DNA of 64,000 nt from Candidatus Iainarchaeum sp. (GTDB taxonomy: Archaea > Iainarchaeota > Iainarchaeia > Iainarchaeales > 1-14-0-10-31-34). Positions 17,618 to 57,698 of this stretch are shown piece after piece. The DNA lies in the NCBI GenBank assembly GCA_017609625.1, contig JAFCDN010000010.1, positions 9,153-73,152 on the forward strand, read 5' to 3'. Made by a program: the position numbers and the translations under genes. The number at the start of each line of letters is the position of its first letter. The stretch's first letter is position 1. Below the pieces are notes generated by a model. It saw only the letters and a list, made by a program, of their open reading frames with translations, ran no database searches and was not told the DNA's origin.

Positions 17618-17631
17618 CCAGAGGAAATTTT

Positions 17632-32974: not shown

Positions 32975-33157
32975 ATGTCTTTTTCAAATGTAATTGCAGG
33001 TGTGCTGGCAGGAGCAATAGCTTTTCTTTCAAACTCTTTAGTTCAGTTTCTGTTAAATCAAAAAGTAGATTTTCTGGAAGCATTTCTTACAGCTTTAATT
33101 ATTGCAGTAATTTTTTTTCTTATTACTTTCCGTTTTTCCAAAAATAAGAGCCTTTAA
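32975..33157 (+). CDS. Small membrane protein (hypothetical)
   Basis: 60-aa ORF with two hydrophobic helices. Weak support. Confidence 0.2.
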   Translation: MSFSNVIAGVLAGAIAFLSNSLVQFLLNQKVDFLEAFLTALIIAVIFFLITFRFSKNKSL

Positions 33158-34004
33158 ACGGGTCAATGTGAATAAACGCTCTGTCGATTTCTTCCATTGA
33201 TTCAATTGAGTATTGAACATTTTTTCCAATTGAATGTGCTTTCTGCACTGAAATGCTTTCATCTACAACAACATGAATTTCAACCTGAACCAAAACCCCT
33301 AAATGCTGTGCTTTAATGTCATGAACTGATTTAATTCCTTCAACTTTTGTTGCTTTTCTTTTAATTTCTTCTATTAATTTTTTTGAAGGGGCTTTTCCGA
33401 TTAATTGATTAGAACTTTCTAATGAAATTTTCACTCCGCTCCACACAATATAAAAAGAAATCAACAAAGCCATTAATGGATCCAAAAAAGAATAGTTATT
33501 CATTGCTCCAAAGATTCCGATTAAAGCTGCAACAGAAATTAATACATCAACTTTGCTGTCTTTTGCTATTGCAATTAAAGCAGTGCTTTTTGTTTTCTTT
33601 CCGACTTTTTTAGTGTAGACTGCCAAAATCACTTTTACTATAATGCTAATAAACAAAACTACAAGTGCGAGAAACCCAAATTTTATTGTGGTTCCAGAAA
33701 TCAACTTTAAAATTCCTTCTTTTGCTAATTCAATTCCAATCACTGCAACCAGCACTCCAATAACCAGTCCTGCAATGGATTCTGCTCTTTCATGCCCAAA
33801 TGGATGGCATAAATCAGGCTTTTTGCATGCAACCCTTACAGCAATTAAAGTAATTGCAGAAGAAAGAATATCTGAAAGAGAATTCAATGAATCTGCAATC
33901 AAAGAAAAGCTTCCTGAAAGAATCCCAATAAAAATTTTAATTAAAAAAAGAAAAATATTTCCTGAGAGATTCAGCAATGAAACAAACTTTTTTTCTTTTT
34001 CCAT
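33123..34004 (-). CDS. Cation diffusion facilitator (CDF) family metal efflux transporter
   Basis: IKIFIGILSGSFSLIADSLNSLSDILSS...HPFGHERAESIAGL, six TM helices, and a C-terminal cytoplasmic domain. Confidence 0.85.
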   Translation of the reverse strand: MEKEKKFVSLLNLSGNIFLFLIKIFIGILSGSFSLIADSLNSLSDILSSAITLIAVRVACKKPDLCHPFGHERAESIAGLVIGVLVAVIGIELAKEGILKLISGTTIKFGFLALVVLFISIIVKVILAVYTKKVGKKTKSTALIAIAKDSKVDVLISVAALIGIFGAMNNYSFLDPLMALLISFYIVWSGVKISLESSNQLIGKAPSKKLIEEIKRKATKVEGIKSVHDIKAQHLGVLVQVEIHVVVDESISVQKAHSIGKNVQYSIESMEEIDRAFIHIDPFKGSYFWKNGK

Positions 34005-34093
34005 TTAACCAACAACTTTTTGCTTAAATATTTTATTTGTCCAGCTTATTTAATCTTTCCATCTTTTTTTATTAACATTCTTTTTATTTAAAT

Positions 34094-34705
34094 ATGATTT
34101 TTATGTTTGAAGTTAATTTAATTGAAGTTTTTATTTTAGGCCTGTTATTTGGTTTTGGTCCCTGCACTGTGTTCTGTGCCCCAATTTTGACTCCAATGGT
34201 TTTATCCAGCGCAAAATCAGCAAAAGAAGGACTTTTCGAAGGAATTTCTTTTAGTTTAGGCAGGCTTTTAAGTTATTCTGTTTTAGGAGCTGCAGCAGCT
34301 TTTATCGGAAGCAAGATTAGCACTATAATGCCTCCTTGGTTTTTTGGATTGTTTATAATTGTTTTAGGAATTCTAATTTTATTGAAAAAAACCCCAAAAC
34401 TTTGTGGGGTTTTCTCTAAATACAAAGGAGTTCACGCTGCATTTGTTACAGGAGTTTTTGTAGGGTTTGCTCCGTGCTATCCTTTGGTTGCGGCATTATC
34501 GCTTGCAGCAGTTTCTGGGTCAGTTTTTTTAGGTGCATTAATTGGATTTGTTTTTGGTTTGGGAACAATGCTTTCGCCTTTGCTGTTAATCAGCCTTGCC
34601 GCAGGAAAATGGGCTTCTTTTTCAATACAGTTCCAAAAAACAAACACAATAATCAGCGGGCTATTCCTGATTTTTTTGGGCGCAATAACTTTGCTTGCAG
34701 TCTAG
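34094..34705 (+). CDS. CcdA/DsbD-family thiol:disulfide transmembrane electron-transfer protein (DsbD_2-like)
   Basis: Two G-x-x-PC motifs in TM helices (LLFGFGPCTVFCAPILTP and FVGFAPCYPLVAAL), with about 6 TM helices. Confidence 0.45.
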   Translation: MIFMFEVNLIEVFILGLLFGFGPCTVFCAPILTPMVLSSAKSAKEGLFEGISFSLGRLLSYSVLGAAAAFIGSKISTIMPPWFFGLFIIVLGILILLKKTPKLCGVFSKYKGVHAAFVTGVFVGFAPCYPLVAALSLAAVSGSVFLGALIGFVFGLGTMLSPLLLISLAAGKWASFSIQFQKTNTIISGLFLIFLGAITLLAV

Positions 34706-34706
34706 T

Positions 34707-35090
34707 TTAAGATTCTTCTAAAAGGCTGTCAATTTTCCAGGCTTTTTCTTCTTTTACAAAAAAGATGTTTCCTTTTGAAGTGTTTAAAATCATTTCTTCA
34801 TTTTGAACCACAACTATTTCTGAAACATATTCAGCTGAAACCAGTTCTTCAAATTCATTGCTTTCTACAGCCCATTTTTTGAATAAATCAAAAGAGTTTT
34901 TGAATTTGTTTTCCTTAAACTCAGAAGAAAAACAGTTCCAAGCGAAATCCAAATCATTTCCTGCAGCTGCTTTTTTTAAATTCTCAAAAGTGTAAATCGG
35001 TGCAACAGGATCTTTATATTCTGCTTTTTGAGTGCAGCCAAAAGAAAAAAATAAAACAAAAAGCAAAATCAATGCAAAAACTTTTTTCAT
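34707..35090 (-). CDS. Putative lipoprotein / secreted protein
   Basis: Signal peptide with a lipobox-like LFFSFGC. Confidence 0.35.
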   Translation of the reverse strand: MKKVFALILLFVLFFSFGCTQKAEYKDPVAPIYTFENLKKAAAGNDLDFAWNCFSSEFKENKFKNSFDLFKKWAVESNEFEELVSAEYVSEIVVVQNEEMILNTSKGNIFFVKEEKAWKIDSLLEES

Positions 35091-35158
35091 ACTCTCATTT
35101 AATTTTTTAGAACAAATCCTTAATAAATAAGCTTTGGTTATTATATAAGGTTTTTTCT

Positions 35159-36169
35159 TTGAAGAGAATCACTTTGTTGAGAAGAACTTTTCAGATAATT
35201 TCATTCATTTTGATAGTATATCTTGGGGTAATTGTATCACAATTGATTGCAATGGAAGTATTGCCTCCTGCTTTAAGTGCAGCTGAATTCAAGGATGCAA
35301 CAGGCCCGGCATTAGAAAAAGACACTACAGGAAAAGTTGAATTGACAGGAGGTCTTTATGGGCCGGTAAAAACATGCAGATATGCCCAAGGAGATGCAGA
35401 ACTCTTTCAGGGCTGTGCATTATATTTCATATCCAGAAGTTTAACTTATCTGCCTCCAATCGAATTCATTTTGCCTTTTATTGTTTTTTTGCTTTTAGCT
35501 TTTTTTATTTTTGGTAGGGCGTGGTGCGGCTGGATTTGCCCTATTGGATTTTTTTCTGAAATAATCAACAGCATTAGAAGGGTTTTAGGAATAGGTTATC
35601 TTACTTTTTCTCCGCGAACTAATAATTTTCTTTTAAACGTGCGCTATGGCATGCTTACTTTGATTGTTTTGATTTCACTTGCAATTTTTTTCCCTGCAAT
35701 GGTTCCTTTCCAAAAAGATTTGTTAGTGTCTAGTTGTCAGCTCTGTCCTGTGCGATTTATTTTTCAGTTCCTGGCAGGACAGATTCCAATATTTTTCTCT
35801 TTTGATTCAATAATAGTAACTTTGTTTTCAATAGTGGGAATGATTTTATTTTTGTTTTTAATTTCTGGTGTGTTATTCAGAAAACCTTGGTGCAGAATCT
35901 GCCCTTCAGGTGCAATAGCTTCTTTTTTCAACAAAACCAGTTTGCTAACAAAAGAAAAAGATGTAAAAAAATGCACTAAATGCGGAATCTGCAAAAGAAT
36001 CTGTCTGGTTCAGAACACTCATGTTTATGATGAAAAAGAAAGCAAGGAATTAAACAATGCAAACTGCATCCGTTGTTTTAGGTGTGTAGAACACTGCCCT
36101 GAAAAAGACTGCCTAAAAGTAAAGTTTTTGGGAAAAACTCTTTACAGCAGCAACATTAAAAACAGGTGA
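35159..36169 (+). CDS. NapH/MauN-like membrane polyferredoxin (CGWICP motif plus 2x[4Fe-4S])
   Basis: TM helices with GRAWCGWICPIG and KPWCRICPSG, and a C-terminal CTKCGICKRIC...NCIRCFRCVEHCP ferredoxin-type domain. Confidence 0.7.
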   Translation: MKRITLLRRTFQIISFILIVYLGVIVSQLIAMEVLPPALSAAEFKDATGPALEKDTTGKVELTGGLYGPVKTCRYAQGDAELFQGCALYFISRSLTYLPPIEFILPFIVFLLLAFFIFGRAWCGWICPIGFFSEIINSIRRVLGIGYLTFSPRTNNFLLNVRYGMLTLIVLISLAIFFPAMVPFQKDLLVSSCQLCPVRFIFQFLAGQIPIFFSFDSIIVTLFSIVGMILFLFLISGVLFRKPWCRICPSGAIASFFNKTSLLTKEKDVKKCTKCGICKRICLVQNTHVYDEKESKELNNANCIRCFRCVEHCPEKDCLKVKFLGKTLYSSNIKNR

Positions 36170-36173
36170 ATTA

Positions 36174-37073
36174 ATGAAAAAGATTTTCTTTCTTCTATCA
36201 ATTTTTTTATTATTTTTTCCTTTTTGTTCAGCCCATGCATGGGAAGAACTAAATCAGATTTTTAAATGTGAACAGCCGGCAAAAATAAGCATTGGAGAAG
36301 TAAAAGAAACAAAAGACGGTTTTTATTTTTCTGTTTTTGTTTCAAACAATTCTTTAACTGCAACAAAAGAATGTGCTCCTTGGAGAAACAAAATCCAGAA
36401 CTCTAAAATTGTTTTATTTAACGGAAATGAAGAAAATCTTTTTGAAGTTTTAGTTGAGCCGGAAAAGCAGACAATAAAAATAGATGAAGAAAGTGCTTTC
36501 AAAATAACAGTAAAAAGAATCAAACCAGTTTATTATGAAACACTTTTGGATTTCAGGTTTTTTTCTGACCAGATTAATTTAGTTAAACCTATTTTTGTTA
36601 AAATTCCAAATGATGTTTCCTCAAAAAAAGCAGGGGTTTTTCTTGGAGAAGATTTTCCTATAGTTTTTGCCAGTGCAACAGAGCCTGATGAAATAACTTT
36701 TCAGAGAGGAAAAGAAGGAGAATTTAAACTCTTTTTGAGAAACGCAAGCAAAATTGATTTGCATAATGTAAAACTGAAAATAATTGAAAGTGATTTTGAA
36801 GTTGAAATTTTTCCGGAAGAATTTGAGGAAATGAAAGCAAATGAAATAAGAAGCTTTACTATTTCAGCAAAAGAAACAACAGATAAGCCTGTCGGGCAGT
36901 ACAAGATTTTGTTTGAAATTACTGCAGAAGAGTTCCCTTATTCTTTGACAAAAAACATCTGGATAACTGTTGTTTTAGAAGACCTTTTTGTTTACCTTTT
37001 TGCAGGAATAATAATTTTATTAATCGCTTTGGTTTTGTTCAGATACAAAAAGTTTTTTTCAGCAAAAAACTAG
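36174..37073 (+). CDS. Secreted protein with a C-terminal membrane anchor (hypothetical)
   Basis: Signal peptide MKKIFFLLSIFLLFFPFCSAHA and a C-terminal TM LFVYLFAGIIILLIALVLF followed by a basic tail. Confidence 0.35.
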   Translation: MKKIFFLLSIFLLFFPFCSAHAWEELNQIFKCEQPAKISIGEVKETKDGFYFSVFVSNNSLTATKECAPWRNKIQNSKIVLFNGNEENLFEVLVEPEKQTIKIDEESAFKITVKRIKPVYYETLLDFRFFSDQINLVKPIFVKIPNDVSSKKAGVFLGEDFPIVFASATEPDEITFQRGKEGEFKLFLRNASKIDLHNVKLKIIESDFEVEIFPEEFEEMKANEIRSFTISAKETTDKPVGQYKILFEITAEEFPYSLTKNIWITVVLEDLFVYLFAGIIILLIALVLFRYKKFFSAKN

Positions 37074-37616
37074 TCAGCATTTCGGCTGAATTTCTTTTTT
37101 CTTGCATGTCTGATAAAAAAAGATTTCTTCGCTGAAAGTTCCAATCAACACCTGAAACTTTTGTGCGATATCATATGTTTCTACTCCGCAGCACACTTCA
37201 AATTCATGTGTTTTTGTTGCATCAGCGTAATCAAATGATTCTAATTTTCCTTCAGTTACTCCAAAATAGCTTTCTTCTTTATCGTAGTAATTTACTCCAT
37301 CAATTATTTTCACGCAATGGAATTCTCTTTCAAAAAGCCATTGATTCCATTCATCTATTTTTGGCAGTTCAACTTCAAAATAAAGTTTTAGATCACAGTT
37401 TTCTTCTTTGCATTCTTCGCAGAACTCCTGCATGTCTTCAATTTTTCCTTTGCTGTTTTCTTCTTTCCATTCAAGTTTATTAAGAGAAACATCTTCTGCA
37501 GAGAATGCCTGAAATGAACCAATGCTTCCGATTATCAAAAACACTCCAAGCAATATAAGACAAAAAATAAATGCAATTTTTTTTCTTCCAAGTTTTTTCA
37601 AATCTTCTTTAAGCAT
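37074..37616 (-). CDS. Membrane-anchored extracytoplasmic Cys-containing protein (hypothetical)
   Basis: N-terminal TM IAFIFCLILLGVFLIIGSIG, and 8 Cys in the extracellular part (CEECKEENC...CC...C). Confidence 0.3.
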   Translation of the reverse strand: MLKEDLKKLGRKKIAFIFCLILLGVFLIIGSIGSFQAFSAEDVSLNKLEWKEENSKGKIEDMQEFCEECKEENCDLKLYFEVELPKIDEWNQWLFEREFHCVKIIDGVNYYDKEESYFGVTEGKLESFDYADATKTHEFEVCCGVETYDIAQKFQVLIGTFSEEIFFYQTCKKKEIQPKC

Positions 37617-37896
37617 TCTTAATTACCTTTTTTGAGTAAAAAAATATACAGAGAGCTGTTAATATAAGTATTGCAGTGCTCCATGGAGTAAAAGTACAAT
37701 GAGAATAATAACCTAAAAGATTTTCTTTGCTTGCAGGCAAAGGAAGCACAGTTGAAACTGCTGAGATTAAAAGCAGTGCAATAAGAATTTTTTTAAAGTC
37801 TATTTTCATCAACATCCTAAAAAAATAACTCCCAAATGTTTTTAACTTTCTTGCACTTATTTTTAAACAGATGAAACTTTTTACCTTATCCAACAC
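37609..37896 (-). CDS. Small two-TM membrane protein (hypothetical)
   Basis: 95-aa ORF overlapping the downstream gene by 8 nt, with two hydrophobic helices. Confidence 0.25.
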   Translation of the reverse strand: MLDKVKSFICLKISARKLKTFGSYFFRMLMKIDFKKILIALLLISAVSTVLPLPASKENLLGYYSHCTFTPWSTAILILTALCIFFYSKKVIKNA

Positions 37897-38905
37897 AAGG
37901 CGTGCAGTGCAGATAATTGCTTTTTTTCTTTTAGTTTACACTTCTATTTTTTTAACCACAGGAATAGATATTGAAGGTCTGCCTTTTGTAAGTGTGCCAA
38001 AAGATGTTGTAAGACCTGAATGGTATGCTCCGGAAAAAGGCTATACTGAAGTTTTTGATACTTATCTTCCAATAAAAAGCTGCAGGTTTATTGCAGATGA
38101 AAACAGGGCTTTTAGAGCATGTTTTATGCATTTTGCAAATGAAAGCATTGTCTGGAATTCCCCTCCAGAAGAATGGATACCTCATTTACTGTTATTTCTT
38201 TTCGCTGCATTAATTTTTGCACGAGCCTGGTGCGGCTGGATTTGCCCTTTAGGTTTTATTTCTGAAAGCGCTTTTTGGATTAGAAAAAAACTCGGTTTTA
38301 AGGAAAGGAAAATTCCTGAAAAAATAAAACAATATATTCCTGCATTTAAATATGGTTTTCTTTCTTTTGTGTTTCTACTTTCGCTTTTAGTGATTCTTCC
38401 AATTGGTCTTTCAGCTTTTCAGGGAGAATTTTCAATTGTAAACTGTGCGACCTGCCCTGCAAGAACAATCTTTCCTTTGTTTGCAGGAAAATTTTCACTG
38501 GATTTTTCTTTCAGCAATCCGGTTTACTTTTTGTTTTCAATAATTGGAATAGCTTTTTTGCTTGTTTTTATTTCTAGTTTTTTCTTTTCCCGCCCTTGGT
38601 GCAGGATCTGTCCTTCTGGAGCGCTGCTATCTCTTTTAAATCCGGTTTCTTTCCTTAGAAAAGAAAAAGAAAAAGAGAAATGCACTTCATGCGGAATCTG
38701 CGAGAGAATCTGCCCGATGGATAACACTACAATCCAGGAAAAGAAAGGAGATTCAATTAACACAGGAAACTGCATCCGTTGTTTTAGGTGTGTAGAACAT
38801 TGTCCTGAAGAAGACTGCCTTAAAGTAAAGTTTTTTGGAAAAACAATTTATAAATCAAAATATAAAGAGAAAACTGAATCGCTTTTGGATTCAACTAAAA
38901 AATAA
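37871..38905 (+). CDS. NapH/MauN-like membrane polyferredoxin, paralog 2
   Basis: ARAWCGWICPLG, RPWCRICPSG, and CTSCGICERICP...NCIRCFRCVEHCP. Its 3' ~85 nt are nearly identical to those of the 35159..36169 paralog. Confidence 0.7.
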   Translation: MKLFTLSNTRRAVQIIAFFLLVYTSIFLTTGIDIEGLPFVSVPKDVVRPEWYAPEKGYTEVFDTYLPIKSCRFIADENRAFRACFMHFANESIVWNSPPEEWIPHLLLFLFAALIFARAWCGWICPLGFISESAFWIRKKLGFKERKIPEKIKQYIPAFKYGFLSFVFLLSLLVILPIGLSAFQGEFSIVNCATCPARTIFPLFAGKFSLDFSFSNPVYFLFSIIGIAFLLVFISSFFFSRPWCRICPSGALLSLLNPVSFLRKEKEKEKCTSCGICERICPMDNTTIQEKKGDSINTGNCIRCFRCVEHCPEEDCLKVKFFGKTIYKSKYKEKTESLLDSTKK

Positions 38906-38949
38906 AGTTTATTAAATGTAAATGTCTTAATAATTCAAGAAGTGTTTTT

Positions 38950-40299
38950 ATGCAGGTTTTGAACAATGTAAAAAGAGCATTGCTTGGAGATGTTACACAA
39001 GAAAAAGAAAACCCGATTTTAGAGAGAAGATATGAAGAGGAACCTTATTCAGAGCCTGGAAAAACAGAAGAATTCAGAAAAAAAATCCTTAACGCCTCAA
39101 TGCAAAACCTGAAATCAATGCAAAGCAAAAAAAACAGGCCAAAAGCAATGGCTTACTTTGACAAGATTGTAACAGGTTCCAGAGAAGAAGAAATAAAAAA
39201 ATCAGGAAAAAAAGTTTTAGGTTATTTTTGTTCTTTTATTCCAGAAGAAATCCTTTATGCAGCAGATGTGATTCCAATAAGATTATGTGCTGGCTCTTTT
39301 GATACAATGGATGTTGCAGAAGGAATACTGCCAAGAGATGTCTGCCCTATGGTGAAATCTTCTTTTGGATTCAAAGTTTTGGGTTTGCCTTTGATGGAGT
39401 TATGCGAGATTGCAGTTGTTCCAACTTCTTGTGATGCAAAAAAGAAAATGGGTTATTATTTAGCAGATTACATGCCTGTCTGGATGCTGCATTTGCCTCA
39501 TAAAAAAGACAGCGATAAGTCAGTTAAATTATGGCTTGAAGAAATGTATGACTTTAAGGATGCTGTTGAAAAATTTGCTGGAAAAAAGATTTCAAAGAAA
39601 GCGCTTGAAGATTCAACTAAACTCTTAAGAAAAAGAACAGATGCTTTCAGAAGATTCTTAGAACTTCGTAAAGCAAAGCTTATTCCAATTTCAGAAAAAG
39701 ATTTTTTGCTTGTAGTTTATGTAAGCTTTTTTGATGATGCAGAAAGATGGACAAAAAATGTTTCTTTATTGTGCGATGAAATTGAAAAAAACATTGAACG
39801 CGGAATTGGAGTTCATTCAAAAGACACTATAAGATTATTATTAACCGGCTCTGCAACAATCTGGCCAAACTTCAAGATTTTAGATATTATAGAAAAAGCA
39901 GGAATGGCAATTGCAGTTGACCAGAGCTGTGTTGGAACATGGCACTTGTATGAACCAGTTGAAGTAGAAGAATACTCTTTGCCTGGGTTAATGCAAGCAA
40001 TAGCTGAACGCTATCTTTCTCCAAGCATCTGCCCCTGCTTTACAGTAAATGATGACAGGTTTGATAATTTAACTGAATTAATCAAAGCCTATGAAGTTGA
40101 CGGAGTCATTTACCATATTTTAAGATTGTGCCAGCTTTTTGATATGGAAGCAGAAACAGTAAAAAAAATCCTTGAAAAAGAAAACATTCCAATGCTAAAA
40201 GTTGTGACAGACTACAGCAAAGAAGATGTAGGCCAGCTGTCTACTAGAATTGAAGCATTCAAAGAAATGATTTTGATTAGAGAGGAAGGAGAAAAATGA
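38950..40299 (+). CDS. 2-hydroxyacyl-CoA dehydratase / benzoyl-CoA reductase (HgdB/BcrB-like) family protein
   Basis: GYFCSFIPEEILYAADVIPIRLCAG plus C-terminal Cys ligands (CPCF...; ILRLCQ). It overlaps the activase gene by 4 nt (ATGA). Confidence 0.65.
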   Translation: MQVLNNVKRALLGDVTQEKENPILERRYEEEPYSEPGKTEEFRKKILNASMQNLKSMQSKKNRPKAMAYFDKIVTGSREEEIKKSGKKVLGYFCSFIPEEILYAADVIPIRLCAGSFDTMDVAEGILPRDVCPMVKSSFGFKVLGLPLMELCEIAVVPTSCDAKKKMGYYLADYMPVWMLHLPHKKDSDKSVKLWLEEMYDFKDAVEKFAGKKISKKALEDSTKLLRKRTDAFRRFLELRKAKLIPISEKDFLLVVYVSFFDDAERWTKNVSLLCDEIEKNIERGIGVHSKDTIRLLLTGSATIWPNFKILDIIEKAGMAIAVDQSCVGTWHLYEPVEVEEYSLPGLMQAIAERYLSPSICPCFTVNDDRFDNLTELIKAYEVDGVIYHILRLCQLFDMEAETVKKILEKENIPMLKVVTDYSKEDVGQLSTRIEAFKEMILIREEGEK

Positions 40300-41090
40300 T
40301 TACTGCAGGAATTGATGTTGGAAGCGTTACAACAAAATGCGTTTTATTTGATGGAAAAAAAGTTTTAGGAAAAGCTTTAACCCAGACAAAAGCAGATCCA
40401 AATCTTGCAGCAGAATTTGTATACAAAAAAGCTTTGGAAGAAAACAAGATTTCAAAAGAAAAGATTTCTTTTATTGTTTCAACAGGCTATGGAAGAAGAG
40501 CAATAGATTATGGAAATACCAGTGTAACAGAAATAATGGCTAATGCAACCGGAGCTTACTGGGTTGGATGCCCTAAAGGAGAAATCAAAACAATAATTGA
40601 TTTAGGAGGCCAAGACAGCAAAGTGATTGCTTTAGAGAAAGGCGGGCATATAAGAAATTTTGTTATGAACGATAAATGCAGTGCAGGCACAGGCAGATTC
40701 CTTGAAAACATGGCTAATGTTTTAGGAGTTTCATTAGAAGAACTTGGAAGTTTTTCCTTGAAATCAAAAAATCCTATTGCAATCAACAGCACCTGCACTG
40801 TTTTTGCAGAATCAGAAATAATTTCTTTGATTTCCAAGAGAGCAAAAAAAGAAGACATTATTGCAGGGCTTCATATTTCTATAAGCAAAAAAATTGTTCA
40901 CATGGCCAGGGAATTAGGGGTAAGAGAACCTGTTTTTTTTGACGGCGGGGGAAGCAAAAACATTGGAATAAAGAAAGCTCTTGAAAATGCGCTTGGAGTA
41001 GAAATTTATGTTCCGGAAAACTCGCAGTTTATTATTGCTTTAGGTGCAGCAATAGTTGCATTTAAACTAGCAACAAAACAGCAGAAATAA
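40296..41090 (+). CDS. CoA-substrate-specific enzyme activase (HgdC/BadF/BcrA-like ASKHA ATPase with a bridging [4Fe-4S])
   Basis: MITAGIDVGSVTTKCVLFDG..., IDLGGQDSKVIAL, and MNDKCSAGTGRFLENMA. Confidence 0.85.
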   Translation: MITAGIDVGSVTTKCVLFDGKKVLGKALTQTKADPNLAAEFVYKKALEENKISKEKISFIVSTGYGRRAIDYGNTSVTEIMANATGAYWVGCPKGEIKTIIDLGGQDSKVIALEKGGHIRNFVMNDKCSAGTGRFLENMANVLGVSLEELGSFSLKSKNPIAINSTCTVFAESEIISLISKRAKKEDIIAGLHISISKKIVHMARELGVREPVFFDGGGSKNIGIKKALENALGVEIYVPENSQFIIALGAAIVAFKLATKQQK

Positions 41091-41093
41091 AAT

Positions 41094-43757
41094 TTATGCT
41101 CCGCCAAATATTTTGAATGCAATTGAGCCAATGATTGCAATTACAATCACTGCATAAACAAAAATCATTAAATCAGATGGTTCACTTACAACAAGAGTGG
41201 TTGTTACAATCCTGCTTCTAGTGAATTCTCTTGCTTCAACTTCAAAGCTTAATTCAGTGCTTCCAAGCTCTGCATCTTCTGCAGTGGTTAAAGTTGCAAC
41301 AAAACTTTTTATTTCATTTGGCTTTAATTCATCAATTATTTCTGGTTCAATCTTTTTTACTATTTCAGTGTTATCTGCATTCACTTTCAAATTATGCAGC
41401 CCTTCTGTATGACCATTTCTAACAAAAATTCTTACTTCAATTGTTTCTCCAGGGCGCATTTCAATTTTATCTCTGTCTCCTATGCTTACAGCAAAAGGAA
41501 TTGAATCTGGATCTAAAATCTTTATTTCTACTCCTTCTTTTGCAAAAACATCAATTGAAGATGTTTTAAATCCTATTTTTTCTGCAGTGAGTTTTAGAGT
41601 TCCTTTTCTTGCGGTTAAAACAGCTTCTCCGTTTGAGTTAGTAGTTGCAGTTTGATTCAAATAAGCTATTTTCACTCCAGAAACTGGCTTTGAATCTTTA
41701 TCAACAACTTTTGCAGTAAAAGATTGTTTGTCAACAATAGTTTGAGGAAGAATTACAGACATTTCTTTTAAATCAGGTGCAGTATTATGCTTGCATTCAG
41801 AATTGCATTTCCCTGGGTTTTCACAAACATCTTCAGTTAAAGAATCATTATCATTACATTCAGCATCATTTTTACATGCAGTTTCTGCACAAGAACCATT
41901 ACAGCAAATTTTTTCTCCAACACAACCACAATCTTTCTGGCAGGTAGAACAATTTTCTGTTCCAGTACATTGCCCGTCCCCGCAAGTCAAACTGCAATCA
42001 TTGTCATTTTCATTAGTGCATCCAGCCGGACAGCAGCCATCATTGTCTGCACATTCTTTTGGTGCATAAGAACAAGATGCACTGCAAGAGTTTGGATTAT
42101 TACAAGAATCTGTAGTGCATGCATCTGAATCATTACAAGCAGAATTATCTGCACAAGCCGGAGTAATACAAGAACCATCACAGCATAATCCTGTACCACA
42201 ACTGCAGTCTTCTGAACAGCTTGAACAATTTTCTCCTACTCCTGAATTACATTGTGAATTTCCACAGCAATCACTTACTTCACAATCAGAACAACCAGAA
42301 CTGCATTCCCCTGTTTCACAAACTTCATTCCCGCAAATCAAACCACAATCATTATCATTTGCTGTAGTGCATCCTGAAGGACAGCAGGAATCTGAATTTA
42401 CACAAGAAGTAATTGCAGGATTAGAACAAGATGAACTGCATGTTCCTGCATTATTGCAGGAATCATTTGTACAAGAATCTGAATCATCGCAGCCAGAATT
42501 ATTTGAACAGGTTGGTTCTTCGCAAGAGCCAGAACAGCAAATTCCGGTTGTACAACTACAATCAGCAGAGCAACTTTCACAATTTTCTGCTCCATTGCAT
42601 GTTCCGTCCCCGCATTCTGCACTGCAGTCATTATCGTTTCCTGTTGTACATCCGCTTGGACAGCACCCGTCAGAGTTTACACAGAAAGTTATTTCAGGAA
42701 AAGTGCATTCTGCACTGCAAGTTCCTGCATTACTGCAAGTGTTTGTAGTGCATGCATCTGAATCATCACATTCAGAGTTTTGTGAACAATCTGCTTCAAC
42801 GCAGGAGCCTGAGCAACAGATGTCATCTCCTATACAACTACAATCTTGTGCACAAGTAGAACAGTTTTCTGTTCCATTACAGCTTCCATCCCCGCATACT
42901 GCTTCGCAATCATTATCATTTAATATTGTGCATCCGCCAGGGCAACACCCGTCAGAGTTAATGCAGGAAGTTATTGGAGGATTAGAACAAGATGAACTGC
43001 ATGTTCCTGGATTATTGCATGTGTCTGTAGTACATGAATCTCCGTCAGAACAGTCTGGGTTGCTTATGCAGGTTGGTGCAATGCAAGATCCAGAACAACA
43101 GATATCCCCTCCATTACAACCACAATCTTGTGCACAGCTTGAACATGTTTCTCCTGGATTGCAGGTTGAATCCCCGCAGCAACCAGATAAACCACAGTCC
43201 GGGTCTTCTCCTTCTTCACAATATGCAGGGCAGTTTCCATTGCATCCGTCTGGAGTGCAGCTTCCACTAGTCACTTGGATATTTGTTGCATCAACATATC
43301 TGCTTGAGTAACTGTCTGGTTTTACTTTAAAACGCATACTGTAAGTTCCTGGAGCAGCATTTTTGATGGTTATTGTTACATCAAAGTCTCTTGACTGGTG
43401 AATTGGAATTCCCTGGCTTGAAGGGTTAATGTTTATTTCAAAATCACAGTTTGGGCATCCAGTGTAAGTGCAGGTTGTACAGCTGTAAACTGAAACAACT
43501 ACATTAGAAAAATTTGAGCTCCATGGGTTGCACTTCCCACTGGCATTCTGGAAAGTTTGTCTGTTTTCAACATTTATTGTAAACGATATTTGGTTTCCAT
43601 TATAATTTGGGCCGTCAGTAATCGTTATTACAACCGGATCAAGACAGCCATACCCTGCCTGGCTTCCTCCTGGAAGAACATCACTACACACGTGAGCAAA
43701 AGCATTAGAAAAAAAGAACAGAAGAAAAACTAAAACTAAAAAAATCTTTTTACTCAT
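41094..43757 (-). CDS. Giant cysteine-rich cell-surface protein with about six ~90-aa tandem slime-mold-type (Dictyostelium CxDxxxCTxDxC) repeats, an Ig/CarboxypepD_reg-like domain and a C-terminal TM anchor
   Basis: Signal peptide MSKKIFLVLVFLLFFFSNAFA. Repeats of ...CGDGSCNGTENCSTCAQDCSC...CCSGSC...C..NS.CDDSDACTTNTCSNAGTCS..C..P.IT.C.NSDGCCP.GCT..NDNDC. C-terminal LMIFVYAVIVIAIIGSIAF. Confidence 0.6.
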   Translation of the reverse strand: MSKKIFLVLVFLLFFFSNAFAHVCSDVLPGGSQAGYGCLDPVVITITDGPNYNGNQISFTINVENRQTFQNASGKCNPWSSNFSNVVVSVYSCTTCTYTGCPNCDFEININPSSQGIPIHQSRDFDVTITIKNAAPGTYSMRFKVKPDSYSSRYVDATNIQVTSGSCTPDGCNGNCPAYCEEGEDPDCGLSGCCGDSTCNPGETCSSCAQDCGCNGGDICCSGSCIAPTCISNPDCSDGDSCTTDTCNNPGTCSSSCSNPPITSCINSDGCCPGGCTILNDNDCEAVCGDGSCNGTENCSTCAQDCSCIGDDICCSGSCVEADCSQNSECDDSDACTTNTCSNAGTCSAECTFPEITFCVNSDGCCPSGCTTGNDNDCSAECGDGTCNGAENCESCSADCSCTTGICCSGSCEEPTCSNNSGCDDSDSCTNDSCNNAGTCSSSCSNPAITSCVNSDSCCPSGCTTANDNDCGLICGNEVCETGECSSGCSDCEVSDCCGNSQCNSGVGENCSSCSEDCSCGTGLCCDGSCITPACADNSACNDSDACTTDSCNNPNSCSASCSYAPKECADNDGCCPAGCTNENDNDCSLTCGDGQCTGTENCSTCQKDCGCVGEKICCNGSCAETACKNDAECNDNDSLTEDVCENPGKCNSECKHNTAPDLKEMSVILPQTIVDKQSFTAKVVDKDSKPVSGVKIAYLNQTATTNSNGEAVLTARKGTLKLTAEKIGFKTSSIDVFAKEGVEIKILDPDSIPFAVSIGDRDKIEMRPGETIEVRIFVRNGHTEGLHNLKVNADNTEIVKKIEPEIIDELKPNEIKSFVATLTTAEDAELGSTELSFEVEAREFTRSRIVTTTLVVSEPSDLMIFVYAVIVIAIIGSIAFKIFGGA

Positions 43758-43826
43758 AAAAAACCTTTTTCTATTTTTAATATTATAAGGAGTTTCAATT
43801 ATTAAAGATTTTCTGTTTTGTGGTTT

Positions 43827-44366
43827 CTATTTTTTTCGACTTAGCAGAACTTTTCCTCCGACTCTTCTAAAAGTCCCGCCAGTTTCATGCATTAAATAAT
43901 TCATCTCATCAATATCCAATACTCCGTCTTTTTCAGCAGCCTTTACTGAAACAACTCTTCCAACTACAATGCAATGGTCTGCTTCTTTTAATTCCAAAAC
44001 CTCGTTTAATTTGCATTCTAAAACTGCTTTGCTTTCTTTTATCCTTGGAACAGAAACTTTTTCTGAATCCTCTAAATGAAGTTGATTTTTTTCAATCCTT
44101 TTGTAGAACTCAATCTTTTCTTCACAGTTTACAGCCTGCTGTGCAAAATCTTCTGAAACAATATTTACAGTGAATTCTTTTGTTTCTTTAATGTTTTTAA
44201 AAGTCATTTTATGCTTTCCAACTCCGACTCCTATCAGCGCAGGCTCAAAACTAAAAGGATAAACAAAAGAATACGGGGCAGCATTAATTTTTCCCTCTGA
44301 ATTTTTTGAAACAATCAGTGTTGTAACTCTTGGGCTTAAAAGTTTAACAAAATTTTTTTCTTCCAT
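43827..44366 (-). CDS. Flavin reductase-like FMN-binding split-barrel protein
   Basis: LSPRVTTLIVSKNSEGKINAAPYSFVYPFSFEPALIGVGVG matches the flavin reductase domain pattern. Confidence 0.65.
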   Translation of the reverse strand: MEEKNFVKLLSPRVTTLIVSKNSEGKINAAPYSFVYPFSFEPALIGVGVGKHKMTFKNIKETKEFTVNIVSEDFAQQAVNCEEKIEFYKRIEKNQLHLEDSEKVSVPRIKESKAVLECKLNEVLELKEADHCIVVGRVVSVKAAEKDGVLDIDEMNYLMHETGGTFRRVGGKVLLSRKK

Positions 44367-54881: not shown

Positions 54882-57698
54882 ATGAAATTGAATATAAAGA
54901 AGCTCGCAGCAGTTGCAGCAGGAGTAGCCTTAGTTGGTTCAGCTCTAGCTCCAATGGCTTCAGCTATCTCTTTGACAAAGTCAGACTTAATGTCTAGCAC
55001 TGCAGTCAATGTAGATGTTGTTGTTGGAAAAAAAGCAGCTGTAAGCGACGGTGTATGGGCAGGAAACATTGCAGCAGCAATTGGATCTAAAGCCTATGCA
55101 GAAAAAACAGTTGCAGTTGGTGCAGCAGACTGTTCTGGTGGAGCAACTCCTTCAGTAACTGACTTGACTGTTGACTTAAGTGTCGGCGGAACCACAAGTG
55201 TTACAGGAGGAAAAGCTTTCTTTGACTATATGGATTCAACAGCTACTGAAACAAACTTTAATAGTCAGACTGTAACAGAAGCAAGTGTTCCTTCATTGTA
55301 TTACAATGGTGCAAAATCATATACCTGGAATGGATCACAATATACAACTTCAATCCAAGAAAGACTTTACTTTACATCAGACGTAAAGTTTGACAGAGAA
55401 GACAATGACGACTTGATTGCAGAAATATCAGCAAATGGCCTAAAATATAATTTGAATTTAGGAACAGGAGTTCCAGCAGTAGAAGCATTAGGAGGGACAA
55501 CAACTTTTACAGATGACGCAAACGATAATGTAAGAATTCCTTTCTTTGGAACAGACTATTTGTTGAAAACAAGCACACCTACAGCAGGAAGCGAATATGT
55601 TGAATTAATCCAAACATCAGGAGAAACAAGATATTCAGAAGGAGACAGAATAACTGACTTAGAAGGATATGACGGAGAATCATATTACATTGAAGTAGGA
55701 CCCGGAGGGACTGTTGGCTCAACACAAAAGATACAACTTTCTTTGTATAAAGAAGATGGAACTTTAGTGAAAAGCGACAACTTTGGAACAGTAGATGTAA
55801 TATTCTATGGAGATGACACAGGAGAACCAATTTTAAGCACTCTTGTAAACATCAGTGAAATCCTGAAAACAGTTGTTTCAGACGCTGAAGTATACACTCC
55901 AACAATTCTTGTAGGAAGCTCAAGAATAAGGTTATACCATAACAAAGGATATCCTTATGACGCTACAATAGTAGATGCTGACTATGACTGGAAAGTAACT
56001 TTAGGGTTTTCATCAGACAAAAACTACTTGCAGGACATTAACATCAGCAATAAGTCAAAGTATGACTTTATTGGTTTTGATGCCTTAAAGGTAGGAGATA
56101 AAGCAGCATTTCCAGAAGGTCTTGGAACTTTAGAATTCCTTGGACTGCAATTACCAGACTTTACAGGAGTTTCAAAAACAGAGAGAACAACTGTAATTGA
56201 AATAAAAGCCGGAGAACTCTTATACAGAGACAACACATATGAAGCACAACACACTGTTCCTTTGTATATATATGAGTCAGGAATATCTAATAGTGATGGA
56301 TCAGGTTCTTTTGTTGTTGATGGAAAAACCATTTCCTATGCATTTAGCGGAACAGATTTAAATGTGTTTGGAACTAGTGCTGCAGACGGTTCAGGAACAA
56401 GATATTCTTGTATTGGTGACGCAAACTACCTTAACGGAGAACCAGTATCAATAACAGACATAAACTACACTCAAATGGATGGTGCATTACCAAGAGCAAA
56501 CAACGCAATAGTCGCTGGAACTGATGTAAACGTTGGACAGCATGTTGACATTAACGGAATGAACTATAAAATGACCGGAGTTAGTGACAGCAACACTTGC
56601 ATATATTTACAAGCCGATGGAAATGTTACTTTCAGAAAAGGAACTACTACAGGAACATTAATACAGGAAATATACTATGCAGATAACAACTACAGTACAG
56701 GTGACATAATAACCCTTGCAGGTGCAAGCGACATAACCCACAAATATGAGGTTATTGTTGAAGAAGGAAGTTCTACTTCAGAACTATGGTTATTACTTGA
56801 TGCACAAAGCAAAACCACACAATATGGCAAAACTTGGTCTCTTACAGGAACAGACGTACAAGAAGATGTTAGTTTTGATGACTATGGATTCTATTTGCCA
56901 CACACATCAAAAATGCCTTTGTATTTAGATGGAGACACAAACTACAATCAAACAGAATACTTCACAGCAAACTTTGAAATTGACGAAGACGAAGACGGAG
57001 CACCAGTCTATGACATAAATGCTCATGTTGACACAGGAACAGGAAATTTGATGATATTTCCAAACACTCAATTAAGCAGTTCTGGTGTCGGAGCAGAAGC
57101 AGACTATAATGGATTGAAGCAATTGAGTGAAAGCTCAGATGCATCAGTTCCTTCTTGGGCATACACTGATTGGGGTTCAAAGATTGTGGTGTTAAACCAT
57201 GAATTCAAAGTTACAATACCAGAAAACAGACCTAAAGCAGAAGTATTGATTTCTGGAACAGGAACAAGCAAAACAGTTACTGGCGGAGAAGATTTGACAA
57301 TAGCTGAAGGAGAAACAGGAAGCACTACAGGCGGAACAAGAGTTACTGTGACAAAAGTCAACTATAACGCAACATGTGAAGGTGGAATAGGAACAGGAAC
57401 AGGAGAATGTACTGTAACTCCAACAACCTATATGTCACCATTGGCAGTAGGCCAACTTGTAACATATGATGAATCACCGTCATCAGCAACACATATTATT
57501 GTTGGTGGATGGAAAGTCAACAAGTTAGCTGAAGGTGTTACTCTTGCAGACGGAACTCCATTGAAGTCAGCATTGACTAAATCAGGAGACTCTGTTGCTG
57601 AGAGAACAAGCGATGGAGACATAATTGTTGCAGGATACAAGGCAGGCGACACAGGAACCGCTGCACAAGAATTAATCAATGCAATTGACAATCTGTAA
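54882..57698 (+). CDS. Large secreted T/G/D-rich surface-layer-like protein (putative S-layer/surface glycoprotein)
   Basis: Signal peptide MKLNIKKLAAVAAGVALVGSALAPMASA, 938 aa, low Cys, rich in T/G/S/D/N/Y, many N-x-S/T sequons, a strong RBS (tgtgaggtga), a terminator hairpin downstream, and less AT-biased codon usage than its neighbours. Confidence 0.55.
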   Translation: MKLNIKKLAAVAAGVALVGSALAPMASAISLTKSDLMSSTAVNVDVVVGKKAAVSDGVWAGNIAAAIGSKAYAEKTVAVGAADCSGGATPSVTDLTVDLSVGGTTSVTGGKAFFDYMDSTATETNFNSQTVTEASVPSLYYNGAKSYTWNGSQYTTSIQERLYFTSDVKFDREDNDDLIAEISANGLKYNLNLGTGVPAVEALGGTTTFTDDANDNVRIPFFGTDYLLKTSTPTAGSEYVELIQTSGETRYSEGDRITDLEGYDGESYYIEVGPGGTVGSTQKIQLSLYKEDGTLVKSDNFGTVDVIFYGDDTGEPILSTLVNISEILKTVVSDAEVYTPTILVGSSRIRLYHNKGYPYDATIVDADYDWKVTLGFSSDKNYLQDINISNKSKYDFIGFDALKVGDKAAFPEGLGTLEFLGLQLPDFTGVSKTERTTVIEIKAGELLYRDNTYEAQHTVPLYIYESGISNSDGSGSFVVDGKTISYAFSGTDLNVFGTSAADGSGTRYSCIGDANYLNGEPVSITDINYTQMDGALPRANNAIVAGTDVNVGQHVDINGMNYKMTGVSDSNTCIYLQADGNVTFRKGTTTGTLIQEIYYADNNYSTGDIITLAGASDITHKYEVIVEEGSSTSELWLLLDAQSKTTQYGKTWSLTGTDVQEDVSFDDYGFYLPHTSKMPLYLDGDTNYNQTEYFTANFEIDEDEDGAPVYDINAHVDTGTGNLMIFPNTQLSSSGVGAEADYNGLKQLSESSDASVPSWAYTDWGSKIVVLNHEFKVTIPENRPKAEVLISGTGTSKTVTGGEDLTIAEGETGSTTGGTRVTVTKVNYNATCEGGIGTGTGECTVTPTTYMSPLAVGQLVTYDESPSSATHIIVGGWKVNKLAEGVTLADGTPLKSALTKSGDSVAERTSDGDIIVAGYKAGDTGTAAQELINAIDNL

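What the first reader, a model, noticed from the sequence alone, without database searches (positions are those of the whole stretch)
41094..43757. 887-aa surface protein built of about six ~90-aa slime-mold-type cysteine-rich repeats with DNA-level tandem repetition
The repeat unit (…C.DG.C.G.E.C..C..DC.C……CCSGSC….C..NS.C.DSD.CT.D.C.N.G.CS..C..P.IT.C.NSDGCCP.GCT..NDNDC) recurs about 6 times between roughly 41.8 and 43.3 kb. It matches the CxDxxxCTxDxCxxxxGC logic of Dictyostelium-type repeats. The N-terminus is a signal peptide. The C-terminus has an Ig/CarboxypepD_reg-like domain and a TM anchor. Such repeats are rare in archaea, and the repetitiveness produces a long spurious antisense ORF. 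The protein is a candidate adhesin or metal/disulfide-rich surface structure, which fits an episymbiotic lifestyle.
Basis: partly seen in the sequence, partly recalled or inferred. Interest (0 to 1): 0.6.

Follow-up and report, generated by a model that had tools for sequence, protein, structure and literature searches.

The report
Cysteine-rich repeat stalk surface protein
This gene encodes a membrane-anchored surface protein of a small uncultured (DPANN-type) archaeon; its long middle section is four and a half copies of a 94-residue, 20-cysteine repeat that most likely acts as a stiff, variable-length stalk holding a lineage-specific head domain away from the cell.

Summary
The 887-aa ORF at 41094-43757 (-) is real. 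It has a signal peptide, an orphan all-beta head (aa 22-166) and a 494-aa acidic region that is 21% cysteine. After that come a CarboxypepD_reg domain, an Ig-like domain and a C-terminal TM anchor.

The repeat count is 4 complete plus 1 truncated 94-aa unit, plus two stray modules, not about 6. The units share only 58-72% nucleotide identity and their synonymous sites are saturated. They are therefore old protein-level repeats, not a DNA tandem array, and assembly artefact is unlikely.

Only a ~20-aa sub-module resembles Dicty_CTDC, and only below threshold (16 vs 27 bits). The whole unit is a 20-Cys variant of the 12-Cys unit of Myxococcota DUF4215 "cysteine-rich repeat" proteins. About 2,200 cluster representatives match the unit profile. 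Full 20-Cys units were seen in only a minority of the hits examined (Altiarchaeales, DPANN, some bacteria). A confident AF2 model (pLDDT 88) has no PDB neighbour.

A syntenic ortholog keeps the head and the anchor but has a different middle, with fn3 x2. A 299-aa paralog 4 kb away has head and anchor with no stalk, and a 1,923-aa relative has 8 units. The repeats therefore behave as an exchangeable spacer. Function is inferred, not shown. I rate it a new variant of a known kind, of moderate interest.

The parts
41094..43757 (-). Complete CDS, 887 aa, type-I membrane-anchored surface protein
   Evidence: ORF. The exact protein is present in NCBI and JGI on an 83.7-kb contig. A syntenic ortholog is found in L041.
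43781..43788 (-). TTATAATA, a TATA-box-like element about 27 nt upstream of the ATG (possible own promoter)
   Evidence: Read directly from the sequence. Not tested further.
43695..43757 (-). Signal peptide, aa 1-21 (MSKKIFLVLVFLLFFFSNAFA|H)
   Evidence: Hydropathy peak at aa 1-28. Small residues at -3/-1 (A-F-A). The same arrangement occurs in 4 homologs.
43260..43694 (-). Head domain, aa 22-166: orphan, predicted all-beta, 7 Cys, mature N-terminus His-Val-Cys
43197..43259 (-). Pre-module, aa 167-187, CTPDGCNGNCPAYCEEGEDPD: a variant of module D
   Evidence: Sequence. The same element occurs in the L041 ortholog and in P0285.
42897..43196 (-). Repeat unit R1, aa 188-287 (full unit from aa 194)
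   Evidence: 130.7 bits to the unit HMM; alignment.
42615..42896 (-). Repeat unit R2, aa 288-381 (20 Cys)
   Evidence: 131.3 bits. AF2 model has pLDDT 87.6.
42336..42614 (-). Repeat unit R3, aa 382-474
   Evidence: 130.2 bits.
41985..42335 (-). Repeat unit R4, aa 475-591, beginning with an extra 23-aa A-like module (CGNEVCETGECSSGCSDCEVSD)
   Evidence: 118.2 bits for aa 498-591. The same doubled-A arrangement occurs in the L001 archaeal protein.
41778..41984 (-). Truncated unit R5, aa 592-660: modules A-B-C only, with the 'CT' Cys replaced by Ser
   Evidence: 63.3 bits, model positions 1-66. It is conserved, including the Cys-to-Ser change, in the L041 ortholog.
41520..41732 (-). CarboxypepD_reg / Ig-like domain, aa 676-746
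   Evidence: PF13620 E 3.5e-7; 33.2 bits vs cutoff 32.3 when scanned alone. A similar domain pair precedes the TM in P0301.
41235..41456 (-). Membrane-proximal Ig-like domain, aa 768-841 (NPCBM_assoc/CARDB-like)
   Evidence: Below threshold here (16.2 bits). The L041 ortholog scores 29.6 bits, above the 24.4 cutoff. It is 31% identical to the short paralog (E 7e-16).
41106..41171 (-). C-terminal transmembrane helix, aa 863-884, followed by a 3-residue tail (GGA)
   Evidence: Hydropathy >1.6 for 19-aa windows starting at aa 854-869. It aligns to the TM of the L041 ortholog.
42115..43311 (+). Spurious antisense ORF (398 aa) created by the repeat composition
   Evidence: Analogous antisense ORFs lie over the Cys-rich parts in L001, L021 and L041.
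36174..37073 (+). Stalk-less paralog (299 aa): signal peptide, head-like domain, Ig-like domain and TM, with no Cys repeats
   Evidence: BLASTP to the target C-terminus gives E 7e-16. hhalign head-to-head gives 91% probability, E 9e-7. It is conserved in L041 at 16904-17803.

Best explanation
The gene encodes a type-I, C-terminally anchored cell-surface protein of a Diapherotrites/Iainarchaeota-like archaeon. After Sec export and signal-peptide cleavage (predicted AFA|H), the protein stands on the membrane. Two Ig-like domains sit next to the anchor. Above them is a 494-aa, strongly acidic region that is 21% cysteine. A small lineage-specific beta-rich head sits at the distal tip.

The Cys-rich region is four and a half copies of a 94-aa unit built from four short modules:
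- A: CG[DN]GxCxxxExCxxCxxDCxC
- B: ICCSGSCxxxxC
- C: CxDxDxCTxDxCxNxGTCSxxC
- D: ITxCxNxDGCCPxGCxxxNDNDC

Each full unit has 20 Cys. I propose the cysteines are paired, as disulfides or possibly around metal ions, so that each unit is a compact knot with almost no hydrophobic core. The chain of units would then act as a stiff, protease-resistant spacer whose length sets how far the head projects, for example past the S-layer. The stalk is the evolvable part: units duplicate, are lost, or are replaced by other spacer domains, while head and anchor are kept.

Shown here: the architecture, the repeat anatomy, the homology relations, and the variability of the middle against the conservation of the ends. 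Inferred: export, cysteine pairing, rigidity, and the spacer role. The ligand or activity of the head is unknown.
For: Architecture.

Unit conservation:
- 27 invariant columns, including 15 of the 20 Cys positions (three more are >=90% conserved), across 11 units from 4 proteins.
- The 12 core Cys columns are essentially invariant in 469 units.
- 96% of units have an even Cys count (438 have exactly 12; the archaeal type has 20).
- The truncated unit R5 lacks module D, which has 5 Cys, and has also lost exactly one more Cys (the 'CT' Cys became Ser). The same is true in the ortholog. This keeps the count even and fits pairwise bonding.

Composition of the stalk: 106 Cys, 81 D+E against 6 K+R, and 4 aromatic residues in 494 aa.

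Structure: the AF2 model of one unit is confident (pLDDT 87.6) and contains only four short strands. That is what a small cross-linked knot would look like.

Spacer behaviour:
- The syntenic ortholog in L041 has a flanking activase 77% identical and a collinear 10-kb block. Its head is 67% identical and its C-terminal part 48% identical. Between module A of the first unit and the last C-D modules it carries 2 fn3 domains plus other Cys modules instead of our units.
- The paralog at 36174-37073 has head, Ig-like domain and TM with no stalk.
- P0242 has the same head, 8 full units and a TM.
- In other proteins the same units sit next to unrelated catalytic or binding domains: between domains in several (beta-helix and LamG in L001; CARDB and NlpC/P60 in P0010) and between a head domain and a TM anchor in others (sortilin-like in P0301, NHL-like repeats in P0113). 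They also accompany a papain protease (P0285) and a cellulase domain (P0083).
- Unit number is dynamic: three near-identical units in P0010 and a near-identical fn3 cassette duplication in L041.

The stalk is native, not recently imported: its GC3 is 0.23, as in neighbouring genes, and the local GC rise lies entirely at codon position 2.
Against: - There is no experimental data of any kind. No coordinates were available, so cysteine pairing and rod shape could not be read from the model.
- Total Cys is odd (113, with 7 in the head), so at least one Cys is free or does something else.
- The organism is probably an anaerobe, judging from the double-cubane reductase and polyferredoxin neighbours. 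Extracellular disulfides are less obviously stable in such a setting.
- Both 12 and 20 are multiples of 4, so four-Cys metal sites are not excluded.
- A spacer role does not exclude that the units also bind something.
Confidence: 0.6

Rival explanations
1. The repeats themselves are the working part. On this reading the protein is an adhesin or matrix protein in which the Cys-rich, Asp-rich units stick to surfaces, partner cells or polymers, or cross-link by disulfide exchange. Dictyostelium matrix proteins and diatom adhesive-trail proteins are thought to work this way.
For: - Module C resembles Dicty_CTDC below threshold.
- A DUF4215-repeat protein was listed among diatom adhesive-trail proteins (bioRxiv 10.1101/2023.03.06.531300).
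- Some relatives consist of little else than units (e.g. P0002, 19 units).
- The Cys total is odd, which leaves a free thiol.
Against: - The ortholog replaces most units with fn3 domains while keeping head and anchor.
- A paralog dispenses with the units altogether.
- In several relatives the units sit between a catalytic or binding domain and another domain or an anchor.
- No calcium-binding or lectin family hit was found.
Confidence: 0.2
2. The protein is a metal-binding or redox protein. On this reading the cysteines ligate metal ions (Zn, Fe, Cu) or act as an extracellular thiol buffer. The head, with its conserved N-terminal His, binds copper or another metal. It would work together with the neighbouring membrane polyferredoxins and the CcdA/DsbD-like thiol electron transporter.
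For: - His is the first residue after the predicted cleavage site in all 5 homologs: AFA|HVCSD twice, VAG|HACDC, CSA|HAWEEL and SFG|HAWEEL.
- The short paralog lies 5 nt downstream of a NapH-like polyferredoxin, with a second one nearby. DsbD_2 and a CDF metal efflux gene are in the same syntenic block.
- Each full unit contains CxxC and CxC spacings.
- FixG_C is a near-threshold hit on the ortholog's membrane-proximal domain (24.6-24.8 vs 25.6 bits).
Against: - The head model is unreliable (pLDDT 47), and its hits are generic Ig-like sandwiches among 2,716 matches.
- No second His is conserved.
- The two genomes compared are close (77% protein identity), so the shared gene order says little about function.
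- The even-number and paired-loss pattern fits disulfides at least as well.
- No metal-binding family reaches threshold.
Confidence: 0.12
3. The feature is an artefact: either a mis-assembled repeat array or a non-coding low-complexity region that happens to stay open.
For: Repeat regions can be mis-assembled. Both strands stay open over 1.2 kb.
Against: - Units are only 58-72% identical in DNA and the longest exact repeat is 32 nt, so collapse or expansion is unlikely.
- All Cys columns are conserved with relatives from other phyla.
- A syntenic ortholog has intact head, junction modules and anchor.
- GC3 is native.
Confidence: 0.02

Closest known systems
Myxococcus cysteine-rich repeat proteins (Pfam DUF4215 / PF13948; TIGR02232), function unknown
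   Same: - The same 12 core Cys columns.
- The same CGNGxxExGExC start.
- The same CDDxNxCTxDxxxxGxC and ITxCxxGDGCCPxGCxxxxDxDC modules.
- Secreted multi-unit proteins, with E-values down to 5.5e-234.
   Different: - The myxobacterial unit is 72-81 aa with 12 Cys. This one is 94 aa with 20 Cys: 8 extra Cys, including an added CCxGxC module.
- The DUF4215 HMM does not hit this protein and reaches E<=1 on only 1 of 106 related units.
- The host here is an archaeon, and the protein is TM-anchored rather than carrying a MYXO-CTERM-type signal.
Dictyostelium (slime mold) repeat, Dicty_CTDC (PF00526)
   Same: The C-x-D-x-x-x-C-T-x-D-x-C-x-x-x-x-G-x-C logic of module C. It is the only Pfam family that recurs on the units.
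   Different: - Scores stay below threshold (16 bits vs 27).
- It covers about 20 of 94 residues.
- It occurs once per unit, not as head-to-tail 24-aa arrays.
- Dicty_CTDC was listed in a 2021 paper among repeat families without a known structure, so no fold comparison is possible (PMC8078820).
Cys-rich rod-like spacers of eukaryotic surface proteins (integrin beta I-EGF stalk, laminin LE rods, TNFR CRDs) and Giardia VSPs (from general knowledge, not tested)
   Same: Works alike, by inference: strings of small cross-linked modules with little hydrophobic core, placed between a distal functional domain and a membrane anchor. Giardia VSPs are likewise type-I proteins with about 12% Cys, many CxxC motifs and a very short tail.
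Altiarchaeales protein ODS40779.1 (P0017) and unnamed metagenomic proteins P0010, P0110, P0242, P0285, P0301
   Same: - They carry the same full 20-Cys, 94-aa unit at 47-56% identity.
- P0242 also shares the head domain.
- P0301 shares the CarboxypepD_reg plus TM end.
   Different: They carry different heads or enzymes (repeat-rich N-terminal region, NlpC/P60, papain protease, sortilin-like) and different unit numbers (2-8). All are annotated 'hypothetical'.

Membership tests
Dicty_CTDC (PF00526) | Pfam HMM score at or above the gathering threshold (27 bits) | tested here: not met
   No hit on the whole protein at E<=10. Isolated units or module C score 16.0-16.3 bits, E about 0.01. Of 106 related units, 16 reach E<=1, best 1.1e-4.
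Dicty_CTDC (PF00526) | CxDxxxCTxDxCxxxxGxC motif | tested here: met
   Present once in each of R1-R4. R5 has Ser in place of the CT Cys.
Dicty_CTDC (PF00526) | Head-to-tail arrays of about 24-aa repeats | tested here: not met
   The motif recurs with a 93-117-aa period, embedded in a larger unit.
DUF4215 / Myxococcus cysteine-rich repeat (PF13948, TIGR02232) | HMM hit above threshold | tested here: not met
   No Pfam or NCBIfam hit at E<=10 on this protein. Only 1 of 106 related units reaches E 0.031.
DUF4215 / Myxococcus cysteine-rich repeat (PF13948, TIGR02232) | Unit-level homology to proteins annotated with the family | tested here: met
   There are 418 hits at E<=1e-3, many of them PF13948-annotated Myxococcota proteins. 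The 12 Cys columns are shared across 469 units.
   Not listed at E<=10 for the protein or for isolated units.
CarboxypepD_reg (PF13620) | Pfam HMM score at or above 32.3 bits | tested here: met
   33.2 bits when aa 657-887 are scanned alone. 30.9 bits in the full protein. PF13620 is precomputed for P0001.
NPCBM_assoc / CARDB-like Ig domain (PF10633) | Pfam HMM score at or above 24.4 bits | tested here: inconclusive
   14.4-16.2 bits here. The aligned domain of the L041 ortholog scores 27.6-29.6 bits.
Archaeal PGF-CTERM / archaeosortase-processed surface proteins | PGF motif before the C-terminal TM, or an NCBIfam PGF-CTERM hit | tested here: not met
   The C-terminus reads ...SEPSDLMIFVYAVIVIAIIGSIAFKIFGGA with no PGF. 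There is no NCBIfam hit.
Rusticalin-type CysRRep (Daugavet et al.) | Cys spacing Cx6-9Cx5-7Cx8-11Cx7-8CC; mostly eukaryotic | tested here: not met
   The spacing given in the paper does not fit the unit (C x5 C x4 C x5 C x3 C x7 C x5 CC). It is a different repeat.
Copper 'histidine brace' proteins (LPMO, CopC, PmoB, YcnI) | N-terminal His plus a conserved second ligand (usually His) in a beta-sandwich | tested here: inconclusive
   The N-terminal His is conserved in 5 homologs. No second conserved His is present. The fold model is too poor to judge.

The most novel reading that the evidence does not exclude
The head-plus-anchor family may be a new class of extracytoplasmic metal-binding (for example copper) or redox proteins. 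The family comprises this protein, its stalk-less paralog, the L041 pair and P0242, all with an invariant N-terminal His. On this reading they are functionally coupled to the adjacent NapH-like polyferredoxins and the CcdA-like thiol transporter. The 20-Cys units would then be a new fold that positions, or electronically or chemically connects, the head at a set distance from the membrane.
Probability: 0.1. Interest if true: 0.75.

Novelty: new variant of a known kind. Interest (0 to 1): 0.45.

Why it matters
- It defines a 94-aa, 20-cysteine repeat unit that no Pfam or NCBIfam model covers and that has no neighbour among solved structures. About 2,200 cluster representatives match its profile.
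- It links that unit to the long-unexplained Myxococcus DUF4215 repeats and, remotely, to the Dictyostelium repeat.
- Four versions of one head-and-anchor scaffold occur with no stalk, 4.5 units, fn3 plus fragments, or 8 units. This natural comparison gives the first argument from sequence for what these repeats do: they act as an exchangeable spacer.
- For DPANN archaea, whose cell-surface biology is almost unknown, it supplies a concrete, expressible surface protein with a lineage-specific tip domain to test for host or substrate contact.
- It also raises the question of how an apparent anaerobe stabilises more than 100 extracellular cysteines.

Tried and rejected
- Tandem Repeats Finder on 41000-43900 found only three trivial short repeats, because the units are too diverged.
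- A PDB sequence search with the whole protein and with a head profile gave nothing below E 0.038.
- A word-based homolog search with the head domain found nothing. The first metagenome scan, using the N-terminal part of the head, chose poor patterns and found nothing. A second scan, with the conserved end of the head, found the ortholog L041.
- The look-up of encoding contigs could not locate the exact protein.
- The genome-contig scan did not return the window's own genome. The organism was therefore placed only through PheS relatives.
- A viral-contig scan with the unit profile found no relatives.
- The rusticalin-type 'CysRRep' literature concerns a different, mainly eukaryotic repeat and was dismissed.
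- Literature searches for DPANN/Diapherotrites plus 'cysteine-rich' surface proteins returned nothing relevant.
- The 'split FixG/CcoG' idea for the short paralog plus the NapH-like neighbour was considered. The paralogs themselves give no FixG_C hit, so it is kept only as a low-probability reading.
- Recent horizontal transfer of the stalk from GC-rich myxobacteria was rejected, because GC3 is native.
Full report

Window 41094..43757 on the minus strand is an uninterrupted ATG-to-stop ORF of 887 aa. It contains 113 cysteines (12.7%).

The N-terminus (MSKKIFLVLVFLLFFFSNAFA|HVC) is hydrophobic with small residues at -3/-1. The only other strongly hydrophobic stretch is at about aa 863-884, followed by three residues. 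Pfam finds CarboxypepD_reg at aa 676-746 (E 3.5e-7; 33.2 bits against a cutoff of 32.3 when the C-terminus is scanned alone). A weaker Ig-like match (NPCBM_assoc/MG2) lies at aa 768-841.

Two details are not.

- **Copy number.** Aligning the Cys-rich region gives four complete units (aa 188-287, 288-381, 382-474, 475-591) and one truncated unit (592-660). There is also a 21-aa pre-module (167-187) and a 23-aa extra module at the start of unit 4. That is about five copies, not six.
- **DNA-level repetition.** Units are 58-72% identical in nucleotides and 46-68% in amino acids. TRF reports no long-period array. The repeat finder detects the 279/282-nt period only at 62-72% identity. Columns with an identical Cys use the same codon only 9-12 times in 20, which is about the random expectation for this gene's TGT/TGC usage. 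The longest exact repeat is 32 nt.

The units are therefore old duplicates held together by selection on the protein, and an assembler would be unlikely to collapse or inflate them.

The 398-aa antisense ORF (42115..43311) exists and is Q/S/P/L/E-rich. Similar antisense ORFs overlie the Cys-rich parts of three relatives, so it is a by-product of composition. The local GC rise (0.40 against about 0.32) sits wholly at codon position 2. GC3 of the stalk is 0.23, as in neighbouring genes.

**2. Anatomy of the unit**

Each full unit has 20 Cys and four recognisable modules:

- A: CG[DN]GxCxxxExCxxCxxDCxC
- B: ICCSGSCxxxxC
- C: CxDxDxCTxDxCxNxGTCSxxC
- D: ITxCxNxDGCCPxGCxxxNDNDC

Across 11 units from four proteins, 27 columns are invariant. 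These include 15 of the 20 Cys positions, and three further Cys positions are at least 90% conserved. The 494-aa region has 106 Cys, 81 Asp+Glu against 6 Lys+Arg, and only 4 aromatic residues.

**3. What family is it?**

No Pfam or NCBIfam model covers the units. Dicty_CTDC appears only when a single unit or module C is scanned alone, at 16 bits against a cutoff of 27. Over 106 related units it is the only recurrent family (16 units at E<=1, best 1.1e-4). GCC2_GCC3 and PSI never appear. The 'slime-mold' resemblance is therefore a below-threshold match to about 20 of 94 residues.

A search of 5.8 billion proteins returned 418 hits. Most are Myxococcota 'cysteine-rich repeat' proteins annotated DUF4215. 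Their unit is 72-81 aa with exactly 12 Cys, and those Cys align to 12 of our 20. The archaeal unit is thus the same unit with 8 added cysteines.

Full 20-Cys units at 47-56% identity occur in only a few of the proteins examined:

- an Altiarchaeales protein (ODS40779.1);
- P0010 and P0062/P0121;
- P0110.

A profile of the unit, run against 1.84 billion cluster representatives, gave 2,226 hits at E<=1e-3, 867 at E<=1e-10 and 130 at E<=1e-30. In about 16 of the best 150, the best-scoring stretch covers the full unit.

In species-representative genomes, 5 of 40 confirmed loci are archaeal: two unnamed archaea, one Woesearchaeota genome with two loci, and an Iainarchaeum. The rest are Myxococcota and allies. 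None was found in viral contigs.

**4. Structure**

Indirect evidence for pairwise bonding:

- 96% of 469 units have an even Cys count.
- The truncated unit R5 lacks module D (5 Cys) and has additionally lost exactly one Cys, the 'CT' Cys, now Ser. The ortholog shows the same change.

**5. Organism and context**

The window is archaeal: PriS, PriL, RFC, LonB, archaeal PheRS, aRF1 and an S-layer protein. PheS is 74-79% identical to unnamed 'archaeon' MAG proteins. It is 50-63% identical to many Candidatus Diapherotrites proteins. The organism is therefore a Diapherotrites/Iainarchaeota-like DPANN archaeon. An episymbiotic lifestyle is not shown by anything here.

**6. The decisive comparison**

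A metagenome scan with the conserved end of the head found L041, part of a 250-kb contig. It carries a 1,086-aa protein beside the same activase (77% identical) and double-cubane reductase. These lie in a 10-kb block collinear with window 43739-34037.

Compared with our protein:

- The signal peptide, head, pre-module and first A module are 67% identical.
- The last C-D modules, the truncated unit, both Ig-like domains and the TM are 48% identical overall.
- The middle is different. L041 has two fn3 domains (E 8.6e-19), in a near-identical duplicated cassette, plus other Cys modules where we have about three and a half units. It also has a cytoplasmic tail of about 90 aa that ours lacks.

Three further comparisons point the same way.

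- P0242 (1,923 aa) has the same head (28% identity, E 2e-13), eight full units and a TM.
- Four kilobases from our gene, ORF 36174-37073 (299 aa) is a paralog with signal peptide, head-like domain (hhalign 91%, E 9e-7), the same membrane-proximal Ig-like domain and TM (31% identity, E 7e-16), and no stalk at all. It is conserved in L041.
- Elsewhere the units accompany unrelated domains. They lie between a beta-helix region and LamG in L001, and between CARDB and NlpC/P60 in P0010. They lie between a sortilin-like head and CarboxypepD_reg plus TM in P0301. They also occur with NHL-like repeats and a TM anchor in P0113, with a papain protease in P0285, and with a cellulase domain in P0083.

**7. 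Mechanism**

The pattern of conserved ends and a freely changing middle is what one expects of a spacer. I therefore read the repeats as a stiff, cross-linked, highly acidic stalk that sets the distance between the membrane-proximal Ig-like domains and the distal head. I put confidence in this at about 0.6. What the head binds or does is unknown.

Rivals:

- **The units are themselves adhesive or cross-linking (0.2).** In favour: the Dicty-like motif, and a DUF4215 protein among diatom adhesive-trail proteins.
- **The protein is a metal or redox protein (0.12).** In favour: an invariant His as first mature residue in all five homologs; CxxC/CxC spacings; and the neighbourhood of two NapH-like polyferredoxins, a DsbD_2/CcdA-like transporter and a CDF efflux protein. 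Against: no conserved second His, only weak fold evidence, and gene order shared only between close relatives.
- **Artefact (0.02).**

**8. Novelty**

This is not a new kind of thing. Strings of Cys-rich modules are a familiar way to build extracellular stalks, and the core unit is that of DUF4215 proteins.

What is new:

- the 20-Cys, 94-aa variant, which is uncovered by domain databases and has no structural neighbour;
- its presence in DPANN and Altiarchaeales surface proteins;
- the head-and-anchor family with stalk-less, short-stalk and long-stalk versions.

I rate it a new variant of a known kind, with interest about 0.45.

Noticed in passing
window 36174-37073 (+); L041 16904-17803 (-): A 299-aa stalk-less paralog of the target (head-like domain, Ig-like domain and TM). 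It starts 5 nt after a NapH-like polyferredoxin gene and lies between two such genes. Its mature N-terminus is predicted to be HAWEEL.
   Followed up: partly
window 43692-43694 (His22); L041 ortholog; P0242; both short paralogs: His is the first residue after the predicted signal-peptide cleavage site in all five homologs (AFA|H, AFA|H, VAG|H, CSA|H, SFG|H). This recalls the N-terminal-His copper sites of CopC, YcnI, PmoB and LPMOs, but no second conserved His is present.
   Followed up: partly
window 33123-41090: A conserved block of membrane electron-transfer and metal genes: CDF cation efflux (33123-34004, -), DsbD_2/CcdA-like (34094-34705), NapH-like polyferredoxins (35159-36169 and 37871-38905), double-cubane-cluster reductase (38950-40299) and its activase (40296-41090). 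It is collinear with L041.
   Followed up: partly
window 61623-63953 (-): A 776-aa ORF whose residues 551-776 match aRF1 model positions 174-402. A long stretch of the upstream part matches intein-containing proteins, so it is probably an intein-bearing release factor aRF1.
   Followed up: no
window 54882-57698 (+): A 938-aa protein with S_layer_MJ (TIGR01564) and S_layer_C hits, a candidate S-layer protein 11 kb from the target. It is relevant to how far a stalk must reach.
   Followed up: no
L041 7577-9481 (-): In the related genome the ortholog is preceded by an AglB/STT3 oligosaccharyltransferase gene. Synteny with the window breaks exactly at the 5' end of the surface-protein gene. The target has 12 N-x-S/T sequons.
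   Followed up: partly
window 8620-10374 (-): PheS is 584 aa, about 100 aa longer at the N-terminus than the Diapherotrites homologs, which cover 82% of it. Some of its closest relatives carry a TrmB-type HTH domain (PF01978).
   Followed up: no
window 42417-42448 and 42978-43009 (gene positions 1309 and 748): A single 32-nt exact repeat between units R1 and R3 (encoding GTCSSSCSNP) in otherwise saturated repeats. It is possibly a small gene-conversion tract.
   Followed up: no
L041 10280-11740: The ortholog's stalk contains a near-identical duplication of a cassette of roughly 150 aa (Cys-rich segment plus fn3). This indicates recent duplication inside the stalk.
   Followed up: partly
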